Source of the DNA: a virus
Length of the DNA: 40,460 bases
UHGV virus genome: UHGV-1390708
Direction: 5' to 3' (one strand)
Made by a program: the position numbers and the translations under genes
Notes under the pieces: model-generated
Databases searched by the model: none
What the model was told of the DNA's origin: nothing
Seen by the model: the letters and a program-made list of their open reading frames with translations, nothing else
Shown: piece by piece, positions 2,694 through 27,928 of the stretch
Numbering within the stretch: the stretch's first letter is position 1
Layout: the number at the start of each line of letters is the position of its first letter

Positions 2694-3550
2694 CACTTCA
2701 CCTCCTGCTGCGGTGCTGCTGGCATTTCACGCCAGTGCGTAACTGAGTGCGGATCCGGATATTCGGTGCCATCATCCCAGCGATTGCCATTCCACATTGC
2801 AGACCACATCTCACCGTCTTCATACATGACCATTACCGGAATTAACTTATCCGGCATTCGCTCACTACAGCTTATCCAACCATCCGGAGTTACCGGAACT
2901 TGCGGAATGGCTGTCTGCTCTCGAACGTCATTAGGCGCTATAGGTTCTGCTGCCAACTGACTGGCATATTTGTTAATGGTAACGATAAGCTCTTGCTCAG
3001 CCTCATCCAGACAATCACCGATACCTCGCCTGTCACCGTCAAAATCATCGAAATCGGCACGAATCTTGGCAACCTTCTGGATTGCGGACAACACCTCACT
3101 AGGAATTACCGGATAGTTGGTTGACGTTTCCGCGATTTCACGAAAATTATTGGTTGACGAATTCTTGTTTTCCCGAAAGTTTCCGGACTGAAACATGGCT
3201 GCGCGATAGGCGTTCCAGCCGACAGCTTTTCCGTGTTCAAACGCGCTGTCAAAGTCATCATCCATTTCCATCGCATCAGGCACAGATACCGTCTCTGGAG
3301 GGGCGGCGTAAAGCGGAGTTACGGTAATTTCGTATTCGTTAATATCTTCATCGCTGATAGATGCATCAAAGCTTAAAAAGCCAGGTCTACCGAGACCACG
3401 GGCCTGTGCGTCCTGGATGATGTACGCCACAGCCTCAGCTTCGAGCGATGCCAGTGCGATACGCGCCAGCTCCCTTTCTTCTGACGCGGTTGGCTCAGGA
3501 CCGTTGCCGAGGAAAATTTCTTGTGCGCGCTTTTTGGTAATTGTGCTCAT
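2693..3550 (-). CDS. DUF551-type early accessory protein
   Basis: 285-aa ORF; the Trp-rich C-terminus (WISCSERMPDKLIPVMV...WNGNRWDDG) resembles the DUF551 domain common in lambdoid early-left regions (from memory). Confidence 0.65.
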   Translation of the reverse strand: MSTITKKRAQEIFLGNGPEPTASEERELARIALASLEAEAVAYIIQDAQARGLGRPGFLSFDASISDEDINEYEITVTPLYAAPPETVSVPDAMEMDDDFDSAFEHGKAVGWNAYRAAMFQSGNFRENKNSSTNNFREIAETSTNYPVIPSEVLSAIQKVAKIRADFDDFDGDRRGIGDCLDEAEQELIVTINKYASQLAAEPIAPNDVREQTAIPQVPVTPDGWISCSERMPDKLIPVMVMYEDGEMWSAMWNGNRWDDGTEYPDPHSVTHWREMPAAPQQEVK

Positions 3551-9864: not shown

Positions 9865-10572
9865 TTACCAACTATGAGACGACCAGAATACTCTGCCAAT
9901 AATCCTTACGGTTTCATGAAATTCATCTCTATCCATTACTTCATCCGGGTACTCTTCGCGATTTATTGATCTGATTATCACCGATGTAGGGGTGGCGATT
10001 AATGTTTTTACTCGTAACAAATCAGACTGGCAAATAGCGTAGGTTTTACCATCTCTGATGGTGGTATCTTGCGTGTTAACACCAACAACATCGCCATCGT
10101 GAAGCGTTGGTTCCATGCTTTGCCCTACAACCCTAACTAGCTTGGCTGATCTTTCAGATACTCCCATCTTTTTCAGATAGTGCTTTCTGAAAACCAAAGA
10201 GAACTCCGATGATTCCTCTAGCTCGCAGCTACCGCTTCCAGCTGAAAGCGAAACGTTAAGAAGAGGCAACGCAACAAACTCGTCATCGTTTCTTTTAATG
10301 TCTTCCCATACCACAGCTTTTAAAGATGACTCACGGACATTGGATGGTTCTTCATGTGCACCATCCCTCATTTCACCAATACCAGAACTAAGCCATTCAG
10401 GGCGCACTTTTAAAGCATTGGCTAATTCAACCATCTTGCGAGATCCGTTTGTTTTACCGGACGACATCTTCTGTATGGCTGGCTGAGATATTCCAACCAT
10501 GTCAGCAAGCTGTGATTGTGATACCCCTGCTGAGCTCATGGCTGCATTTAGTCTTTCTGCGAATGTTTTCAT
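9865..10572 (-). CDS. cI: CI-type repressor (HTH plus LexA-like S24 peptidase domain)
   Basis: HTH 'SQSQLADMVGISQPAIQKM'; C-terminal 'VVGQSMEPTLHDGDVV' S24 motif. Start set at MKTFAERL because the longer form would run into OR. Confidence 0.85.
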   Translation of the reverse strand: MKTFAERLNAAMSSAGVSQSQLADMVGISQPAIQKMSSGKTNGSRKMVELANALKVRPEWLSSGIGEMRDGAHEEPSNVRESSLKAVVWEDIKRNDDEFVALPLLNVSLSAGSGSCELEESSEFSLVFRKHYLKKMGVSERSAKLVRVVGQSMEPTLHDGDVVGVNTQDTTIRDGKTYAICQSDLLRVKTLIATPTSVIIRSINREEYPDEVMDRDEFHETVRIIGRVFWSSHSW

Positions 10573-10584
10573 ACCCACAAATCT

Positions 10585-10647
10585 ATAACTACGGTTATCC
10601 AAAGTAAAATAACAAAGGTTATTGCTATTTTTTATAACTTGAGTTAT
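10585..10647. promoter_or_regulatory. OR operator cluster with divergent pRM/pR region
   Basis: Three dyads ATAACTACGGTTAT, ATAACAAAGGTTAT, ATAACTTGAGTTAT at about 24-bp spacing between cI and cro. Confidence 0.6.
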
Positions 10648-10683
10648 CTTTGGTTATAAGTAATGACCACAAGAGGTATGCTC

Positions 10684-10908
10684 ATGAATTTAGTAATTCA
10701 ACGAGCCTTGAAAATTGTCGGTAGCCAAAAGCGCCTTGCCGACAAGTGTGGTGTAACGCAGCCAGCAGTACACAAATGGCTGAAAGGCGGGTTGGTCTCT
10801 CCAGAGAAAGTTACCGCCATCGTTAACGCCACTGGAGGGCAGATCAAGGCTTACGAAATTCGCCCCGATTTGCCACACCTGTTTCCAAAACCGAATCAGG
10901 CAGCATAA
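10684..10908 (+). CDS. cro: Cro-like HTH regulator
   Basis: 74-aa form starting MNLVIQRAL, preceded by AGAGG; HTH 'QKRLADKCGVTQPAVHKW'; first rightward gene after OR. Confidence 0.75.
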   Translation: MNLVIQRALKIVGSQKRLADKCGVTQPAVHKWLKGGLVSPEKVTAIVNATGGQIKAYEIRPDLPHLFPKPNQAA

Positions 10909-10915
10909 GTAACAC

Positions 10916-10958
10916 CGCTCTTTAACAGTCATGGTCCTCATTCCCGCCGAAATGCGGG
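10916..10958 (+). promoter_or_regulatory. nutR (boxA CGCTCTTTA plus boxB hairpin)
   Basis: CGCTCTTTAACAG followed by CCCGCCGAAATGCGGG between cro and cII. Confidence 0.65.
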
Positions 10959-10966
10959 AATACAAC

Positions 10967-10995
10967 GCGCATAAGTTGATGCGCATAACTTCTTA
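10967..10995 (+). terminator. tR1-like hairpin
   Basis: gcgcat-aagttg-atgcgc stem-loop then a T-rich tract, between nutR and cII. Confidence 0.3.
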
Positions 10996-11017
10996 TTTGC
11001 TAAGGAAATACTTACAT

Positions 11018-11311
11018 ATGGTTCGTGCAAACAAACGCAACGAGGCTCTAAGAATCGAGAGTGCGTTGCTTAACAAAATCGCAATGCTTGGAACTGAGAA
11101 AACAGCGGAAGCTGTGGGAGTTGATAAGTCGCAGATCAGCAGGTGGAAGAGGGACTGGATTCCAAAGTTCTCAATGCTGCTTGCTGTTCTTGAATGGGGT
11201 GTCGTTGACGACGACATGGCCCGATTGGCACGACAAGTTGCTTCGATTCTCACCAATAAAAAACGCCCGGCGGCAACCGAGCGTTCTGATCAAATACAAA
11301 TGGAATTTTAA
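11018..11311 (+). CDS. cII: CII transcriptional activator
   Basis: MVRANKRNEALRIESALLNKIAMLGTEKTAEAVGVDKSQISRWKRDWIPKF... matches lambda CII as I recall it; AAGGAA Shine-Dalgarno. The track's 5' extension was rejected. Confidence 0.9.
   Translation: MVRANKRNEALRIESALLNKIAMLGTEKTAEAVGVDKSQISRWKRDWIPKFSMLLAVLEWGVVDDDMARLARQVASILTNKKRPAATERSDQIQMEF
11027..11040 (-). promoter_or_regulatory. pRE CII-binding repeat (TTGC-N6-TTGC)
   Basis: Minus strand reads TTGCGTTTGTTTGC, overlapping the cII 5' end as in lambda. Confidence 0.5.
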
Positions 11312-11335
11312 CAACATCCAGCGAGGTAATTATAT
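11257..11335 (-). ncRNA. oop: oop-like antisense RNA with tO terminator
   Basis: Minus strand GGTTGCCGCCGGGCGTTTTTTATTGGTGAG lies antisense to the cII 3' end, as I remember for lambda oop; the 5' end is inferred from the usual ~77-nt length. Confidence 0.4.
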
Positions 11336-11606
11336 GCGAAACAAAGGCTTTAATCCACCTGATACACACAAAGAAGCTAAGCGTTTGCGCTTCCTTCGTT
11401 CCATTGATGAAAGAACTCAAATATCTTTTGTGAAAGTTGCCAGAACTGAGCTTCTGAAGGCTGAGGCGAGGGCGTTGCTCCCGTCTCTACCAAAAGAGGA
11501 GGGGTATACGTTCATTCCAAACGCATTTCTGGAAAAGCTGCTCAAAGAAGACATATCCGTAAGTCAGTTTAACGATGTTCTTAAGGTCTTTCGTCAAGGC
11601 AGGTAG
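11334..11606 (+). CDS. Hypothetical protein (90 aa) between cII and the replication initiator
   Basis: MRNKGFNPPDTHKEAKRLRF...; GAGGTAA Shine-Dalgarno. The track's frame-overlapping extension was rejected. Confidence 0.55.
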   Translation: MRNKGFNPPDTHKEAKRLRFLRSIDERTQISFVKVARTELLKAEARALLPSLPKEEGYTFIPNAFLEKLLKEDISVSQFNDVLKVFRQGR

Positions 11607-11608
11607 TT

Positions 11609-12556
11609 ATGAGCAATACAGCAAAAATCTACGATTTCAGCGCCGCACACGAGCGCAGGAGCAACAGGATGGAGAACCAGAAAACTGGTTACATTCCGTT
11701 GTACCGGAGCATTCTGAAACAGTCATGGGCGAAAGATGTTTATCTTCGCACCCTGTGGGAAAACCTTCTCCTGAATGCCGCCAGAAAGCCATACAAAGCG
11801 AATTTCAAAGGTCATGAATGGCATCTGCAACCCGGTCAACTGGTTGTGACAGCAGCTGATTTAGGTCTTCAGTTATGCGACAGGCATGGCAAGCCAGCAA
11901 GCCGCGATCAGGTTGAGCGGATGCTTCAGGTTTTTGTGAAAGAGGGGATGATCTCCATTGATGGAGAGAAGCAAAAAGGTCGTGTGATCACCATCACAAA
12001 TTACCATGAATATGCTCAAAAAATGGACAATTCACCCGCACATGAAGCCGCACAAACAACCGCACATGACGCCGCACATGACGAAGCCAGTAATGGCGCG
12101 GCTTTCAGCGTACATGCCGCACATGAAAGCGCACATGAAGCCGCACAAACAACCGCACATCATGAACAAGAAGGTATTAACAAGAATATAAATAATACCC
12201 CCCTACCCCCCAATGGGGGAGGCGATGGGCAGGTTAAACCTGAACGTCGCAAGGCAGAACGAATCGACTACGAATCCTTCCTGAACGCCTACAACACCGA
12301 AGTCGGTGACAGACTGCCACACGCTGTTGCGGTCAACGAGAAACGCAAACGCCGCCTGAAGAAAATCATCCCGCAACTGAAAACGCCAAATGTGGACGGT
12401 TTCAGAGCGTATGTCAGGGCGTTTGTGCATCAGGCCAAGCCGTTTTACTTCGGAGACAACGACACGGGCTGGACGGCTGATTTTGATTACCTGCTGAGGG
12501 AAGACTCGTTAACGGGAGTTCGGGAAGGGAAGTTTGCAGACAGGGGGATTGCATGA
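11609..12556 (+). CDS. Replication initiator (O-like / P22 gene 18 analogue)
   Basis: Position between cII and the helicase; the central His/Ala-rich linker is encoded by direct repeats, an ori-in-gene arrangement like lambda O. Confidence 0.65.
12036..12170. repeat. Iteron-like direct repeats (CGCACATGA units; two ~30-bp copies)
   Basis: GCACATGAAGCCGCACAAACAACCGCACAT occurs twice (about 12036 and 12137) with shorter CGCACATGA units between. Confidence 0.6.
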
Positions 12557-13929
12557 GACAGGATATCGAAGCGAGCGTTATCGGTGGCCTGCTGATTGGT
12601 GGATTAACTCCAACCGCCAGTGACGTTCTGGCAACGCTTGAGCCGGAAGCGTTTTCAATTCCGCTCTACCGGAAAGCCTTCGAGGTTATCCGCAAGCAGG
12701 CGCGAAACAGAAACCTAATCGACGCGCTGATGGTTGCCGAGGCGTGCGGAGAGGAGCATTTCACGTCAATCCTGATGACCAGCAAAAACTGCCCGAGTGC
12801 CGCAAACCTGAAGGGATATGCCGGAATGGTCGCGGATAACTATCACCGCCGTCTGGTGCTGGACATCATGGATGAAATGCGTGAACCAATTCAGAGCGGA
12901 ACCATCGACGCATCGAGTCAGGCGATGGATGAACTTGTAAAGCGTCTTTCAGCCATCAGAAAGCCCCGTGACGAGGTTAAACCTGTACGGTTAGGGGAAA
13001 TCATCACTGACTACACTGACACGCTTGACAGGCGTCTGAGGAACGGAGAAGAGTCAGATACCCTGAAGACCGGAATCGAAGAACTTGACGCTATCACCGG
13101 AGGGATGAACGCTGAAGACCTGGTGATTATCGCCGCTCGTCCTGGTATGGGGAAAACCGAACTGGCGCTAAAGATTGCCGAAGGTGTTGCAAGCCGCGTT
13201 ATTCCTGGTTCTGACGTCCGGCGCGGAGTATTGATTTTCTCGATGGAAATGAGCGCATTGCAGATTGCAGAGCGGAGCATTGCCAACGCCGGGAGGATGT
13301 CGGTTAGCGTACTGCGAAATCCTGCATCGATGGATGACGAGGGCTGGGCACGTGTTGCTAACGGCATGAGTCAGCTTGCAGATTTGGATGTATGGGTAGT
13401 CGATGCCTCGCGGTTATCGGTCGAAGAAATACGCTCAATCGCAGAACGGCACAAACAGGAAAATCCAAACCTGTCACTCATCATGGCGGATTATCTTGGC
13501 CTGATTGAGAAGCCGAAAGCAGATCGCAACGACCTTGCAATTGCTCACATCTCCGGAAGCCTGAAGGCGATGGCGAAAGACCTGAAAACACCGGTTATCT
13601 CCCTGAGTCAGCTTTCGCGCGATGTTGAGAAGCGACCAAACAAACGCCCGACAAACGCAGATTTGCGTGATTCAGGAAGCATTGAGCAGGACGCAGACTC
13701 AATCATCATGCTCTATCGGGAAGCGGTATATGACGAGAACAGTAGCGCCGCGCCATTTGCTGAAATCATCGTGACGAAAAACCGTTTTGGTTCACTTGGT
13801 ACGGTTTACCAGCGGTTCTGCAACGGACACTTTGTTGCATGTGACCAGGATGAAGCCAGACAGATTTGCACAACATCAAATGCACCCGCTGCACGTGGCA
13901 GACGATATGCACAAGGGGCTGACGTATGA
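12553..13929 (+). CDS. Replicative DNA helicase (DnaB family)
   Basis: Walker A '[11 protein letters not shown]'; DnaB-type N and C domains; follows the initiator gene with overlapping stop and start. Confidence 0.9.
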
Positions 13930-26674: not shown

Positions 26675-27928
26675 ATGGCTAACCAATTAGCAAAAGACCT
26701 TGAAATCATGTTCGAAAACTACGTTGAAGGCTTTGAGGCCGCCTGCGTAGTTTCCCGTAACGCTAAAAAATTCCGTCCCGGTGATACAGCAATGCAGCGA
26801 GCAGGTGATGTTCTGTATCGTCCGCAGCATTACCACATGAACATTGAGGAAGGCCTCGACCTCAGCGGAAAAACGCCTACAGCACTGGTTCAGCGCCTTG
26901 TTCCTTCTGTATTCAAGGAGCCGAAAAACATTCTGTACACTCTGGATGCGCGTGAAATGCGTGACCCCGAGCATAAAACTGAAGCTGGTCGCGCCGCAGG
27001 TATGCGCCTTGCTGCACAGATTGACTCTGACCTGATTTCCATGGTTACGCAGCGTGCTACTAACGTGATAACAATGGCTGACTCAACCACTGGTTCACAG
27101 GGCCGTGATTTGTGGAACTGTGCGGCAGGTATTGATGCCACCATGACGGCGATTGGTGTACCGCAGGGTATCAACCGTCGCTCTTTCTGGAACCCCTTCA
27201 ACTACAAAGACCTTGCTGGCGAGCTTGGTCACCGTGCCTACGCTCAGGGCGCAACCCTGACAGCATACGAAAAAGCGCAGATCCCTCCGGTTGCTTCCTT
27301 TGATAGCTACAAGACCGATATTTCTGGTCGATTACCGAAAGGAAGCGCTGAATCCTTGACAGTATCAGGCCAACCTGAACACAAGGTTGAAGCGAAAGAT
27401 TCAAATGGTATGCCAGTTGATAACCGACAGGGGACTATTACGGTATCTGCATCTGGCTTGCAGGTTGGTGATGCGTTCACCATTGCCGGTGTGAATTCCG
27501 TACACCAGATCACAAAAGATACCACCGGGCAACCGCAGGTATTCCGTGTTCTGGCTGTTAGCGGAACTACCGTAACAATCTCTCCAAAGATTCTCCCTGT
27601 TGAAAATACCGATGTTGCGAGTCGTCCATATGCAAACGTCGATGCCAAACCGGCAGAATCAGCAGCAATCACCATTCTCAACAAGAACGCAGCACCGGCT
27701 AACCTGTTCTGGGCTGATGGTTCTGTTGAACTGATGTACGGCAAACTGGCATTCCCGACTGGTCAGGGTCCACAGGTAATGACAGCAACCACCGAGCAGG
27801 GCGCTACGCTGATCATGTCTTACGCCTTCGACCACATCAAAGGCGTAACCACTGCTCGTTTCACCACTCTGTACGGTTGCTCTGTACTTGTTCCTGAATA
27901 TACGGGCATCGTTATTGCCGGGCAGTAA
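26675..27928 (+). CDS. Major coat protein (P22 gp5-like)
   Basis: 417 aa; position and overall pattern (for example 'NLFWADGS') consistent with P22-like coat; strong terminator follows. Confidence 0.85.
   Translation: MANQLAKDLEIMFENYVEGFEAACVVSRNAKKFRPGDTAMQRAGDVLYRPQHYHMNIEEGLDLSGKTPTALVQRLVPSVFKEPKNILYTLDAREMRDPEHKTEAGRAAGMRLAAQIDSDLISMVTQRATNVITMADSTTGSQGRDLWNCAAGIDATMTAIGVPQGINRRSFWNPFNYKDLAGELGHRAYAQGATLTAYEKAQIPPVASFDSYKTDISGRLPKGSAESLTVSGQPEHKVEAKDSNGMPVDNRQGTITVSASGLQVGDAFTIAGVNSVHQITKDTTGQPQVFRVLAVSGTTVTISPKILPVENTDVASRPYANVDAKPAESAAITILNKNAAPANLFWADGSVELMYGKLAFPTGQGPQVMTATTEQGATLIMSYAFDHIKGVTTARFTTLYGCSVLVPEYTGIVIAGQ

What the first reader, a model, noticed from the sequence alone, without database searches (positions are those of the whole stretch)
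12036..12170. Iteron array embedded in the replication-initiator gene
Two ~30-bp direct repeats and at least six CGCACATGA units lie within the O-like ORF, where they encode a His/Ala-rich linker ([10 protein letters not shown]...). The ori-in-gene arrangement is known from lambda O, but this repeat unit differs from what I remember of lambda iterons and may define the specificity of this replicon.
Basis: partly seen in the sequence, partly recalled or inferred. Interest (0 to 1): 0.4.

Follow-up and report, generated by a model that had tools for sequence, protein, structure and literature searches.

The report
Phage replication origin inside initiator gene
The repeats are very probably the replication origin of a CUS-3/P22-like prophage, sitting inside its own initiator gene as in phage lambda; this is an expected arrangement, though the array surrounds a 25-bp GC-rich box that also occurs in origins run by unrelated initiators.

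Summary
The repeats are real. Eight 12-bp units with core CGCACA form two blocks of four (12036-12083, 12117-12164) around a 33-bp spacer, inside a 315-aa O-like initiator gene (11609-12556). An 18%-GC stretch (12165-12197) and a C/G inverted repeat follow. Only five units are exact CGCACATGA, not six.

In 190 units from 30 related genes, silent third-codon positions inside the core are fixed, while the neighbouring codon encodes seven different amino acids. Gene relatives that keep the N-terminal domain keep the unit, whichever C-terminal domain or helicase partner they carry. Unit position 5 (A or G) tracks residue 100 (Asp or His) at the start of the predicted recognition helix in about 69 distinct loci. 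The array lies at the position annotated as rep_origin in P22.

This is a new specificity within a known kind (lambda, P22, phage L), not a new mechanism. No binding or replication assay exists for it.

Two features were unexpected. Blocks are always equal (3+3 or 4+4). The spacer holds a 25-bp GC box that recurs almost unchanged, often in non-coding DNA, in P1/P7 oriR, a PICI-like satellite and small plasmids. Its function is unknown.

The parts
11609..12556 (+). O-like replication initiator gene (315 aa), CUS-3 / Stx2a-phage type
   Evidence: ORF. Pfam Phage_rep_O at aa 20-132, E=3.4e-15, 56.8 bits against a cut-off of 28.7. 98.5-98.9% DNA identity to genes annotated as replication protein O in CUS-3, JEP4 and Stx2a phages.
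11738..11995 (+). Predicted winged-helix DNA-binding core of the N-terminal domain (aa 44-129). The predicted recognition helix is aa 99-111 (11903-11941).
   Evidence: AlphaFold2 model with mean pLDDT 71.8, elements H44-59, three strands, H82-88, H99-111 and wing strands 115-129. Foldseek matches are all winged-helix regulators (CRP, MarR, CodY, RosR) but weak, E 0.007-0.06.
11906..11908 (+). Codon for Asp100, second residue of the predicted recognition helix. It co-varies with position 5 of the repeat unit. Ala82 (11852-11854) behaves similarly.
   Evidence: D100 accompanies CGCACAT units and H100 accompanies CGCGCAT units in 30 genome loci and in 39 further distinct IMG/VR arrays, with no exception.
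12036..12083 (+). Iteron block 1: four 12-bp units (CCGCACATGAAG, CCGCACAAACAA, CCGCACATGACG, CCGCACATGACG)
   Evidence: Core conservation at silent positions across 190 units.
12084..12116 (+). 33-bp central spacer. It contains the GC box GCCAGTAATGGCGCGGCTTTCAGCG (12086-12110) and a degenerate unit remnant CGTACATG (12109-12116).
   Evidence: The spacer is exactly 33 bp in 30/30 related loci, and all three codon positions are about equally conserved. The same box, with at most 6 mismatches, lies next to unrelated initiators, often in non-coding DNA.
12117..12164 (+). Iteron block 2: four 12-bp units (CCGCACATGAAA, GCGCACATGAAG, CCGCACAAACAA, CCGCACATCATG)
12165..12197 (+). AT-rich, A-rich stretch (AACAAGAAGGTATTAACAAGAATATAAATAATA), the putative DNA-unwinding element
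   Evidence: 18% GC, 20 A and 7 T. 0 of 33 sites are polymorphic among 66 unique near-identical genes, against 9% of sites in the N-terminal and 16% in the C-terminal coding parts. Conserved in relatives with other C-terminal modules.
12198..12222 (+). CCCCCCTACCCCCCAATGGGGGAGG: C-run/G-run inverted repeat at the start of the C-terminal module
   Evidence: The same element follows the AT-rich region in P22 and HK97. Lambda and the lambda-P-type relatives carry a different palindrome (TCGTC.GAGAATTCTG.CGA) at this place. The small hairpin is not significant by energy, z -1.55.
12198..12553 (+). C-terminal domain of the initiator, P22 gp18 / HK97 gp54 type, the presumed helicase-recruiting module
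   Evidence: tblastn: aa 190-315 are 97.6% identical to HK97 O and 60.5% to P22 gp18, while the N-termini are unrelated (alignment). This C-terminal type co-occurs with a DnaB-type next gene.
12553..13929 (+). Phage-encoded DnaB-type replicative helicase (P22 gene 12 analogue), overlapping the initiator stop
   Evidence: Pfam DnaB_C E=9.6e-78 and DnaB E=4.5e-13.

Best explanation
The array is the replication origin of this P22-like (CUS-3-type) lambdoid prophage, embedded in the linker-coding part of its own initiator gene.

Inferred sequence of events:
1. The N-terminal winged-helix domain of the O-like protein recognises the 8-bp core CCGCACAT. The core is repeated every 12 bp in two blocks of four on either side of a 33-bp spacer.
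2. The multi-protein complex strains the adjacent 33-bp AT-rich stretch, which opens.
3. The C-terminal domain (P22 gp18/HK97 type) brings in the phage's own DnaB-type helicase, encoded immediately downstream.
4. Host primase and polymerase then take over.

The His/Ala-rich peptide is largely a by-product of the DNA repeats.

Shown here: the anatomy, DNA-level selection on the core, co-inheritance of unit and N-terminal domain, co-variation of one base with one residue of the predicted recognition helix, and positional equivalence to the annotated lambda and P22 origins.

Inferred only: binding itself, the stoichiometry (monomer per unit, or dimers bridging the two blocks), unwinding and helicase recruitment.
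For: (1) Family and position. Phage_rep_O domain with a DnaB helicase gene downstream. The array lies at the N/C module junction, at the place annotated as iterons in lambda J02459 and as rep_origin in P22virB-3 OQ031658.

(2) More than chance.

(3) DNA-level selection. In 190 register-defined units from 30 loci, unit position 2 is C in 190/190. That position is the wobble base of a codon encoding P, A, S, T, G, N or Y. Wobble position 5 is only A or G, wobble position 8 is T in 168/190, and wobble position 11 is free at 0.10 bit. Among 66 near-identical alleles, variation falls at unit positions 9-12 and the core is almost invariant.

(4) Module linkage. Klebsiella phage Mulock and Yersinia phage 210.17 share the N-terminal domain (74-80% identity) and the CCGCACA units, but carry a lambda-like C-terminus and a lambda-P loader. 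HK97 and P22 share the C-terminus and helicase but carry other iterons. Relatives at about 50% N-terminal identity carry other 12-bp units in the same layout.

(5) Co-variation. CGCACAT goes with D100 and A/P82; CGCGCAT goes with H100 and S/T82, in 30 + 39 distinct loci. The G type is not monophyletic in a neighbour-joining tree, and other residues between 100 and 143 do not track the unit. Residues 82 and 100 open the two helices of the predicted helix-turn-helix.

(6) The AT-rich stretch is adjacent, invariant (0/33 polymorphic sites) and conserved at all codon positions.

(7) The literature treats such in-gene repeats as the origin in lambda, P22 and phage L (PMC8022706), and the O N-terminal domain as the origin-binding, specificity-defining part (PMC2629481).
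Against: No experiment exists for this O type.

None of 61 phage records that carry the array annotates it as an origin, and no paper in the held library prints the unit.

The units lack the dyad symmetry of lambda, P22 and HK97 iterons, and the 12-bp period is off the helical repeat, so the binding geometry cannot simply be copied from lambda.

The structural model is only moderately confident (pLDDT 71.8) and its fold matches are weak.

Co-variation could partly reflect linkage, because residue 100 lies only about 130 bp from the array.

Single-block variants with three units exist (L050, L187), and whether they are functional is unknown.
Confidence: 0.85

Rival explanations
1. The repeats matter only at the protein level. 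They encode a flexible, repetitive His/Ala-rich linker that arose by slippage, and the DNA repeats have no function of their own.
For: The array is in frame, with a 12-bp unit of four codons, and lies between two folded domains. The region is the most polymorphic part of the gene among close relatives, with 21-43% of sites polymorphic against 9-16% elsewhere, as expected for an unconstrained linker.
Against: Silent positions inside the core are fixed while the encoded amino acids vary. Position 2 is C in 190/190 units across seven encoded amino acids, and the Ala-position codon is only GCA or GCG (GAG in some G-type units), never GCC or GCT, although all four Ala codons are used in the N-terminal domain. 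The unit co-varies with a residue of the DNA-binding domain. The flanking AT-rich stretch is invariant.
Confidence: 0.04
2. The units are initiator-binding sites, but they serve control (titration, autoregulation of O/helicase expression, or pairing of copies) rather than origin firing. The origin proper lies elsewhere.
For: Iterons of plasmids such as P1 serve both initiation and copy control (general knowledge; the P7 record labels its iterons as the incC incompatibility determinant). The two equal blocks could pair.
Against: An invariant AT-rich stretch lies directly next to the array. The position matches the lambda and P22 origins. No other repeat array or cluster of the core exists in the 40-kb window. 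No promoter-like site lies in or near the array.
Confidence: 0.07
3. The array is mainly a recombination or module-boundary sequence, or the binding site of a host factor rather than of the phage initiator.
For: The array lies exactly at the mosaic junction between exchangeable N- and C-terminal modules. Blocks homogenise with each other, and deletions occur between the 34-bp repeats (L050). The central GC box is shared with unrelated replicons and so is not initiator-specific.
Against: The unit sequence changes with the N-terminal domain and with residue 100, which a host factor or a generic recombination signal would not require. The mosaic junction lies after the AT-rich stretch, not within the units. 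There is no DnaA box with at most one mismatch in 11400-12685.
Confidence: 0.03

Closest known systems
Phage lambda ori / O protein (four iterons ITN1-4 inside gene O)
   Same: The initiator belongs to the same Pfam family, Phage_rep_O. Its N-terminus [10 protein letters not shown] resembles lambda's MTNTAKILNF. In both, the repeats lie in the middle of the initiator gene and are followed by an A-rich AT stretch and then a palindrome. The N-terminal domain is taken as the origin-binding, specificity-defining part (PMC2629481).
   Different: Lambda has four contiguous 18-bp dyad-symmetric iterons spaced 20-24 bp apart. Here there are eight 12-bp direct units without dyad symmetry, in two blocks around a conserved 33-bp spacer. 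Lambda has no GC box. Lambda O pairs with the P loader and host DnaB, whereas this gene pairs with a phage DnaB-type helicase. Overall protein similarity to lambda O is marginal (BLASTP E=0.004 over 65 aa).
Phage P22 gene 18 / gene 12 replicon (and HK97 O/P)
   Same: The C-terminal domain matches (60.5% identity to P22 gp18, 97.6% to HK97 O). The next gene is a DnaB-type helicase. The same AT-rich stretch plus CCCCC..GGGGG palindrome follows the array. A rep_origin is annotated at the equivalent place in a P22 record.
   Different: The N-terminal domain is unrelated in sequence. P22 and HK97 iterons are about 18-bp lambda-like dyad-symmetric sites, four in number, with no central spacer or GC box.
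[quoted passage not shown]
   Same: Short direct units lie in two equal blocks (3+3) around the same central box (CCAGTAATGACGCGGCT), inside a distantly homologous initiator (22% identity, E=4e-10), followed by an AT-rich stretch and a DnaB-type helicase gene.
   Different: The unit is TGTCCAACGGA with an 11-bp period, so a different specificity. The paper describes six repeats but mentions neither the bipartite layout nor the shared central box.
P1/P7 plasmid-prophage origin oriR (RepA iterons, G+C-rich stretch, GATC 7-mers, DnaA boxes)
   Same: A homologous GC box (GCCAGACGTGGCGCGGCCTGCAACG in P7, GCCAGTAATGACGCGGCTTACAGCG in P1-like variants) lies between the iterons and the AT-rich region inside the annotated oriR.
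   Different: The initiator is unrelated (Rep3 WH1/WH2). The origin is non-coding, has 19-bp iterons on one side of the box only, and has Dam sites and DnaA boxes that are absent here.

Membership tests
Lambdoid 'origin inside the O gene' system | Initiator with a Phage_rep_O N-terminal domain | tested here: met
   Pfam PF04492, 56.8 bits against a cut-off of 28.7, aa 20-132.
Lambdoid 'origin inside the O gene' system | Array of direct repeats in the middle of the initiator gene, at the junction of the N- and C-terminal modules | tested here: met
   The array spans aa 143-186. tblastn breakpoints fall at aa 143 and aa 190; alignment.
Lambdoid 'origin inside the O gene' system | AT-rich stretch directly downstream of the repeats | tested here: met
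   12165-12197 is 18% GC and invariant among close relatives.
Lambdoid 'origin inside the O gene' system | Repeat sequence follows the N-terminal domain (specificity module) | tested here: met
   base-residue co-variation.
Lambdoid 'origin inside the O gene' system | Iterons of about 18-20 bp with internal dyad symmetry (lambda, P22, HK97) | tested here: not met
   Units are 12 bp, direct and without an inverted half-site. Lambda, P22 and HK97 for comparison.
Lambdoid 'origin inside the O gene' system | Initiator binds the repeats, and the fragment supports initiator-dependent replication | not testable with these tools
   Needs EMSA or footprinting and a plasmid origin assay. Only comparative inference is available.
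Lambda-type O/P replicon | Partner gene is a lambda-P helicase loader | tested here: not met
   The next gene is a DnaB-type helicase. Relatives with the same iterons do have lambda P (Pfam Phage_lambda_P, E=2.3e-60).
P22 gene 18/12-type replicon | gp18-type C-terminal domain plus a phage DnaB-type helicase | tested here: met
   60.5% identity to the P22 gp18 C-terminus; helicase; co-occurrence.
P22 gene 18/12-type replicon | P22-type N-terminal domain and P22 iterons (TCGGTAAAA...TTTACCGA) | tested here: not met
   The N-termini do not align beyond the first residues, and the iterons differ.
Phage L/ST64T-type short-unit bipartite origin | Short (11-12 bp) direct units in two equal blocks around the CCAGTAATG.CGCGGCT box, within a homologous initiator gene | tested here: met
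   ST64T sequence; protein homology E=4e-10; n+n layout in 30/30 relatives.
Iteron plasmids of the Rep3/P1 RepA type | Rep3 (WH1-WH2) initiator, non-coding origin with DnaA boxes | tested here: not met
   The initiator is Phage_rep_O. There is no DnaA box in the origin region. Only the GC box is shared.

The most novel reading that the evidence does not exclude
The origin is not just 'lambda with other iterons'. It is a bipartite design in which two always-equal blocks of initiator sites flank a 25-bp GC box (GCCAGTAATGGCGCGGCTTTCAGCG).

The box is a portable, initiator-independent origin element. It recurs almost base for base in origins served by at least six unrelated initiator families:
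- O-like winged-helix initiators
- an HTH_36-type initiator
- P1/P7 RepA
- the primase-helicase of a PICI-like satellite
- a Replicase/PriCT_1 family (Pfam PF03090 + PF08708) initiator
- a Rep_1 rolling-circle protein

It would then be read by the host, for example as a built-in DnaG start signal. Its two conserved CAG triplets and its resemblance to the primer-start motifs of the phage G4 complementary-strand origin point that way, but only weakly.
Probability: 0.3. Interest if true: 0.7.

Novelty: new member of a known kind. Interest (0 to 1): 0.4.

Why it matters
This initiator type is common. The array occurs in 281 of 5,426 complete E. coli genomes and in the Stx2a-converting phages of O157:H7. 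Its predicted origin is not annotated in any of the 61 phage records that carry it.

Knowing the origin and its specificity code predicts which co-resident prophages can cross-activate or compete for initiators. It also gives a handle on the replication, and hence toxin-gene amplification, of Stx phages of this type.

The Asp/His100 and A/G-position-5 pairing is a clean, directly testable case of how a replicon changes origin specificity by one residue and one base.

If the GC box proves to be a host-read module shared by phage, satellite and plasmid origins, it would be a general element of enterobacterial origins that has gone unannotated.

Tried and rejected
- RNA or DNA structure: single-strand folding of the array (z -0.74) and of the AT-rich/palindrome part (z -1.55) is not better than shuffles. 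There is no Rfam match in 10500-13000.
- Promoter inside the array: none found. A terminator-like hit at 12146-12129 on the minus strand is a by-product of the repeats.
- DnaA boxes: none with at most one mismatch within the origin; the nearest is at 12686.
- Solved structures: no PDB sequence match for the initiator. Foldseek gave only weak winged-helix matches.
- Literature: searches for the unit and for the GC box as printed sequences found only unrelated primers. The VT2-Sa (1999) and P1 oriR core (1991) papers are not held.
- The first IMG/VR scan with the N-terminal domain returned only 98-100% identical copies. These were useful for polymorphism but not for divergence.
- Alternative-frame ORFs over the array (12006-12191 +, 12032-12169 -) were rejected as repeat artefacts.
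- GC box versus phage G4 oric: the gapped score (11) is not above the best score in shuffled G4 genomes. Only the location of the top hits is suggestive, so the primase-signal idea stays a lead.
- Some exact hits to the 17-nt box motif (L209, L260, L268, L269) lie in long structural-gene ORFs and were set aside as probable chance hits. L311 and L324 lie in intergenic DNA next to a terminase-like gene and lack the CAGCG extension, so they were also set aside.

Full report
**What is there.** Window 11609-12556 (+) is a 315-aa ORF with a Pfam Phage_rep_O domain (aa 20-132, E=3.4e-15). A DnaB-type helicase gene follows at 12553-13929, overlapping the initiator stop. A cI-like repressor, cro and a cII homologue lie upstream. 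The DNA is 98.5-98.9% identical to genes annotated 'replication protein O' in phage CUS-3, JEP4, HF4s and about 50 Stx2a-converting phages. The window as a whole is a CUS-3-like P22-type (Lederbergvirus) genome.

- Block 1: four 12-bp units at 12036-12083.
- A 33-bp spacer at 12084-12116.
- Block 2: four more units at 12117-12164.
- A 33-bp stretch of 18% GC at 12165-12197.
- The inverted repeat CCCCCCTACCCCCCAATGGGGGAGG at 12198-12222.

Exact CGCACATGA occurs five times, not six. All five are in the array, against 0.55 expected. The shared core is CGCACA, present eight times. Pairs of cores 12 bp apart occur six times, against none in 100 shuffles. The two '~30-bp' repeats are 34 bp long and 32/34 identical.

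**Is it DNA or protein that is selected?** I collected 36 relatives of the N-terminal domain from one-genome-per-species bacterial contigs, including Xenorhabdus, Yersinia, Enterobacter, Brenneria, Sodalis and Pantoea. I laid out 190 units from 30 loci by register.

| Unit position | Codon position | Result in 190 units |
|---|---|---|
| 2 | wobble, in a codon encoding P, A, S, T, G, N or Y | C in 190/190 |
| 5 | wobble | A or G only |
| 8 | wobble | T in 168/190 |
| 11 | wobble | free (0.10 bit) |

The Ala codons of the N-terminal domain use all four synonyms. Among 66 unique alleles of 98-100% identical genes from IMG/VR, the linker region is the most polymorphic part of the gene. The changes fall at unit positions 9-12. 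The core is nearly invariant, and the AT-rich stretch has 0 of 33 polymorphic sites. The constraint is therefore on the nucleotide core CCGC(A/G)CAT and on the AT-rich stretch, not on the peptide.

**Does the unit belong to the initiator's DNA-binding module?** tblastn shows that the gene is a mosaic.
- Residues 3-143 are shared at 74-80% identity with Klebsiella phage Mulock and Yersinia phage 210.17. Their C-termini are lambda-like (50% identity to lambda O) and their next gene is a lambda-P loader.
- Residues 190-315 are shared with HK97 (97.6%) and P22 gp18 (60.5%), whose N-termini are unrelated.

Mulock and the Yersinia phage carry the same CCGCACA units, in 4+4 and 3+3 layouts. HK97 and P22 carry lambda-like dyad-symmetric iterons of other sequence. 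Relatives at about 50% N-terminal identity keep the layout but have other 12-bp units: CCCGATGAAC, GAGGTAACAAAG, CCCGATACAC and GTCGAA/GTGACGA. Across 40 loci, the CGCRCAT module is joined mostly to the lambda-type C-terminus and P loader (27-28 loci). It is joined only occasionally to the P22-type C-terminus and DnaB helicase, as in this window and in L098.

**A base-residue pairing.** The 65-87% relatives fall into two unit types, CGCACAT and CGCGCAT (the latter with some CGAGCAT). Every unit of an array has the same type. Two protein columns separate the types without exception:
- Residue 100 is Asp with A and His with G.
- Residue 82 is Ala or Pro with A, and Ser (once Thr) with G.

This holds in 30 genome loci and in 39 further distinct IMG/VR arrays. 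The G type is not monophyletic in a neighbour-joining tree, and residues between 100 and 143, which lie closer to the array, do not track it. That argues for function over mere linkage, although linkage cannot be excluded. An AlphaFold2 model (pLDDT 71.8) gives a winged-helix fold in which residue 82 opens helix 82-88 and residue 100 is the second residue of helix 99-111, the recognition-helix position. Foldseek finds only winged-helix regulators, and only weakly. No solved relative exists by sequence.

**Position relative to known origins.** The lambda record annotates four 18-bp iterons at the equivalent place in gene O, followed by an A-rich stretch and a palindrome. A P22 record annotates a rep_origin over its iterons, AT-rich stretch and CCCCC..GGGGG palindrome in gene 18. 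The phage L genome paper states the paradigm and infers L's origin from six 11-bp repeats in gene 18 (PMC8022706). The epsilon34 paper treats the O N-terminal domain as the specificity module (PMC2629481). The palindrome travels with the C-terminal module. P22, HK97 and this window share one palindrome; lambda and the P-loader relatives share another.

**Mechanism proposed.** The initiator's winged-helix domain binds the CCGCACAT cores. The assembly opens the adjacent AT-rich stretch. The C-terminal domain recruits the phage DnaB-type helicase. Binding, stoichiometry, opening and recruitment are all inferred. The 12-bp period, off the helical repeat, and the lack of dyad symmetry mean the geometry differs from the lambda O-some. 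I give the origin/iteron reading 0.85.

The rivals fit the silent-site, co-variation and anatomy data poorly:
- Protein-only linker: 0.04.
- Control sites rather than the origin: 0.07.
- Host-factor or recombination signal: 0.03.

**What is unusual.**

(a) Blocks are always equal. The layout is 3+3 in 24 of the 30 genome loci and 4+4 in 6, with a spacer of exactly 33 bp in all 30. The further IMG/VR arrays are also symmetrical, apart from rare single-block deletion variants (L050, L187). The 4+4 layout appears on at least four separate branches of the tree. Blocks often resemble each other unit by unit.

(b) The spacer is conserved at all three codon positions, and it recurs in ST64T/L gene 18, a protein only 22% identical to this one. 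An exact scan of IMG/VR for CCAGTAATGNCGCGGCT, with follow-up, showed that a 25-bp box, GCCAGTAATGGCGCGGCTT(T/A)CAGCG, occurs with 0-6 mismatches next to unrelated initiators. Random 5-kb sequences give 8-11 mismatches at best.
- A D5_N/DUF5906 primase-helicase of a capsid-bearing, PICI-like island. Here the box is non-coding and has 0 mismatches. It is present in E. coli CFT073.
- P1-family RepA oriR variants. In the annotated P7 oriR the box lies between iteron 14 and the first Dam site.
- An HTH_36-type in-gene initiator.
- Small plasmids with Replicase/PriCT_1 or Rep_1 proteins.
- Several uncharacterised phages.

The box is found in 1,132 of 5,426 complete E. coli genomes. It is absent from the lambda, P22 and HK97 origins.

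The function of the box is unknown. Its two conserved CAG triplets and a resemblance to the two primer-region motifs of the phage G4 complementary-strand origin suggest a DnaG start signal. The alignment score is not above that of shuffled controls, and only the placement of the top hits is suggestive. From memory, a 'G+C-rich stretch' of the P1 oriR core was described in 1991 as a length-critical spacer. I could not read that paper.

**Verdict.** It is a new specificity member of a well-known kind of origin, not a new mechanism. The equal-block layout and the shared GC box are worth a specialist's follow-up and raise the interest somewhat above that of an ordinary annotation.

Noticed in passing
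window 12086-12110; also L213 10022-10046 (-), L210 4670-4694 (-), L338 403-427, L127 3888-3912, L339 1503-1527, L340 1500-1524, L341 1806-1830, L342 about 4000: The 25-bp GC box GCCAGTAATGGCGCGGCTT(T/A)CAGCG at the centre of the array recurs with 0-6 mismatches in origins or rep-gene flanks of unrelated replicons, frequently in non-coding DNA. These include P1/P7 oriR, a PICI-like island of CFT073, small Replicase/PriCT_1 and Rep_1 plasmids, and other phages. It is present in 1,132 of 5,426 complete E. coli genomes. Function unknown; a DnaG or host-factor site is a guess.
   Followed up: partly
window 12036-12164 and loci L089-L116, L128-L185: The two iteron blocks always have equal numbers of units (3+3 or 4+4, never 3+4) and a spacer of exactly 33 bp. 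The 4+4 layout appears on several separate branches, and blocks are often homogenised unit by unit. No explanation has been tested; dimers bridging the blocks, or gene conversion plus selection, are possible.
   Followed up: partly
L050 (IMG/VR), L187 (IMG/VR), L122 (Symbiopectobacterium MAG): Natural variants with a single block of three units. L050 has a 93-bp deletion between the two 34-bp repeats. In L122 the ORF breaks at 78 aa in the frame I read, so the gene appears disrupted. It is unknown whether the L050 and L187 single-block origins work.
   Followed up: no
window 12198-12222; L005 2026-2050; L088 2026-2050; L125 about 560-590; L003 about 3095-3125: The palindrome to the right of the AT-rich stretch goes with the C-terminal/helicase-partner module, not with the iterons. 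CCCCC..GGGGG goes with the gp18-type C-terminus and a DnaB helicase. TCGTC.GAGAATTCTG.CGA goes with the lambda-type C-terminus and the P loader.
   Followed up: partly
window 11260-11287 (-): A strong terminator-like hairpin (12-bp stem plus T run) lies on the minus strand over the 3' end of the cII homologue, at the position of the oop terminator annotated in the P22 record. There is no Rfam match.
   Followed up: no
window 11609-11640: The initiator's N-terminus [10 protein letters not shown] closely matches lambda O's MTNTAKILNF, although the rest of the N-terminal domain is barely alignable. From memory, that lambda O segment is its ClpX recognition signal. This also supports the 11609 start over the internal start annotated in JEP4.
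   Followed up: no
window 11643-11649: One extra CCGCACA core lies near the 5' end of the initiator gene, outside the array. The only other copy in the 40-kb window is at 27119 (-). Its conservation in relatives was not checked, and it may be chance.
   Followed up: no
window 12006-12191 (+) and 12032-12169 (-): Two alternative-frame ORFs of 61 and 45 aa run through the array. They are open only because the repeat unit lacks stops in those frames, and I treat them as artefacts.
   Followed up: yes
L006 (GenBank OR850084.1): A 2.7-kb record labelled 'UNVERIFIED_ORG: Staphylococcus phage SA 1298 Kay' carries an enterobacterial-type O gene that is 62% identical to this one, with the same spacer, AT-rich stretch and palindrome. 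The organism label is probably wrong, or the record is a contaminant contig.
   Followed up: no
window 11334-11606 (+): A roughly 90-aa ORF lies between cII and the initiator gene. JEP4 annotates it as a hypothetical protein, and it occupies the position of P22 orf48 / HK97 gene 53. It was not examined.
   Followed up: no
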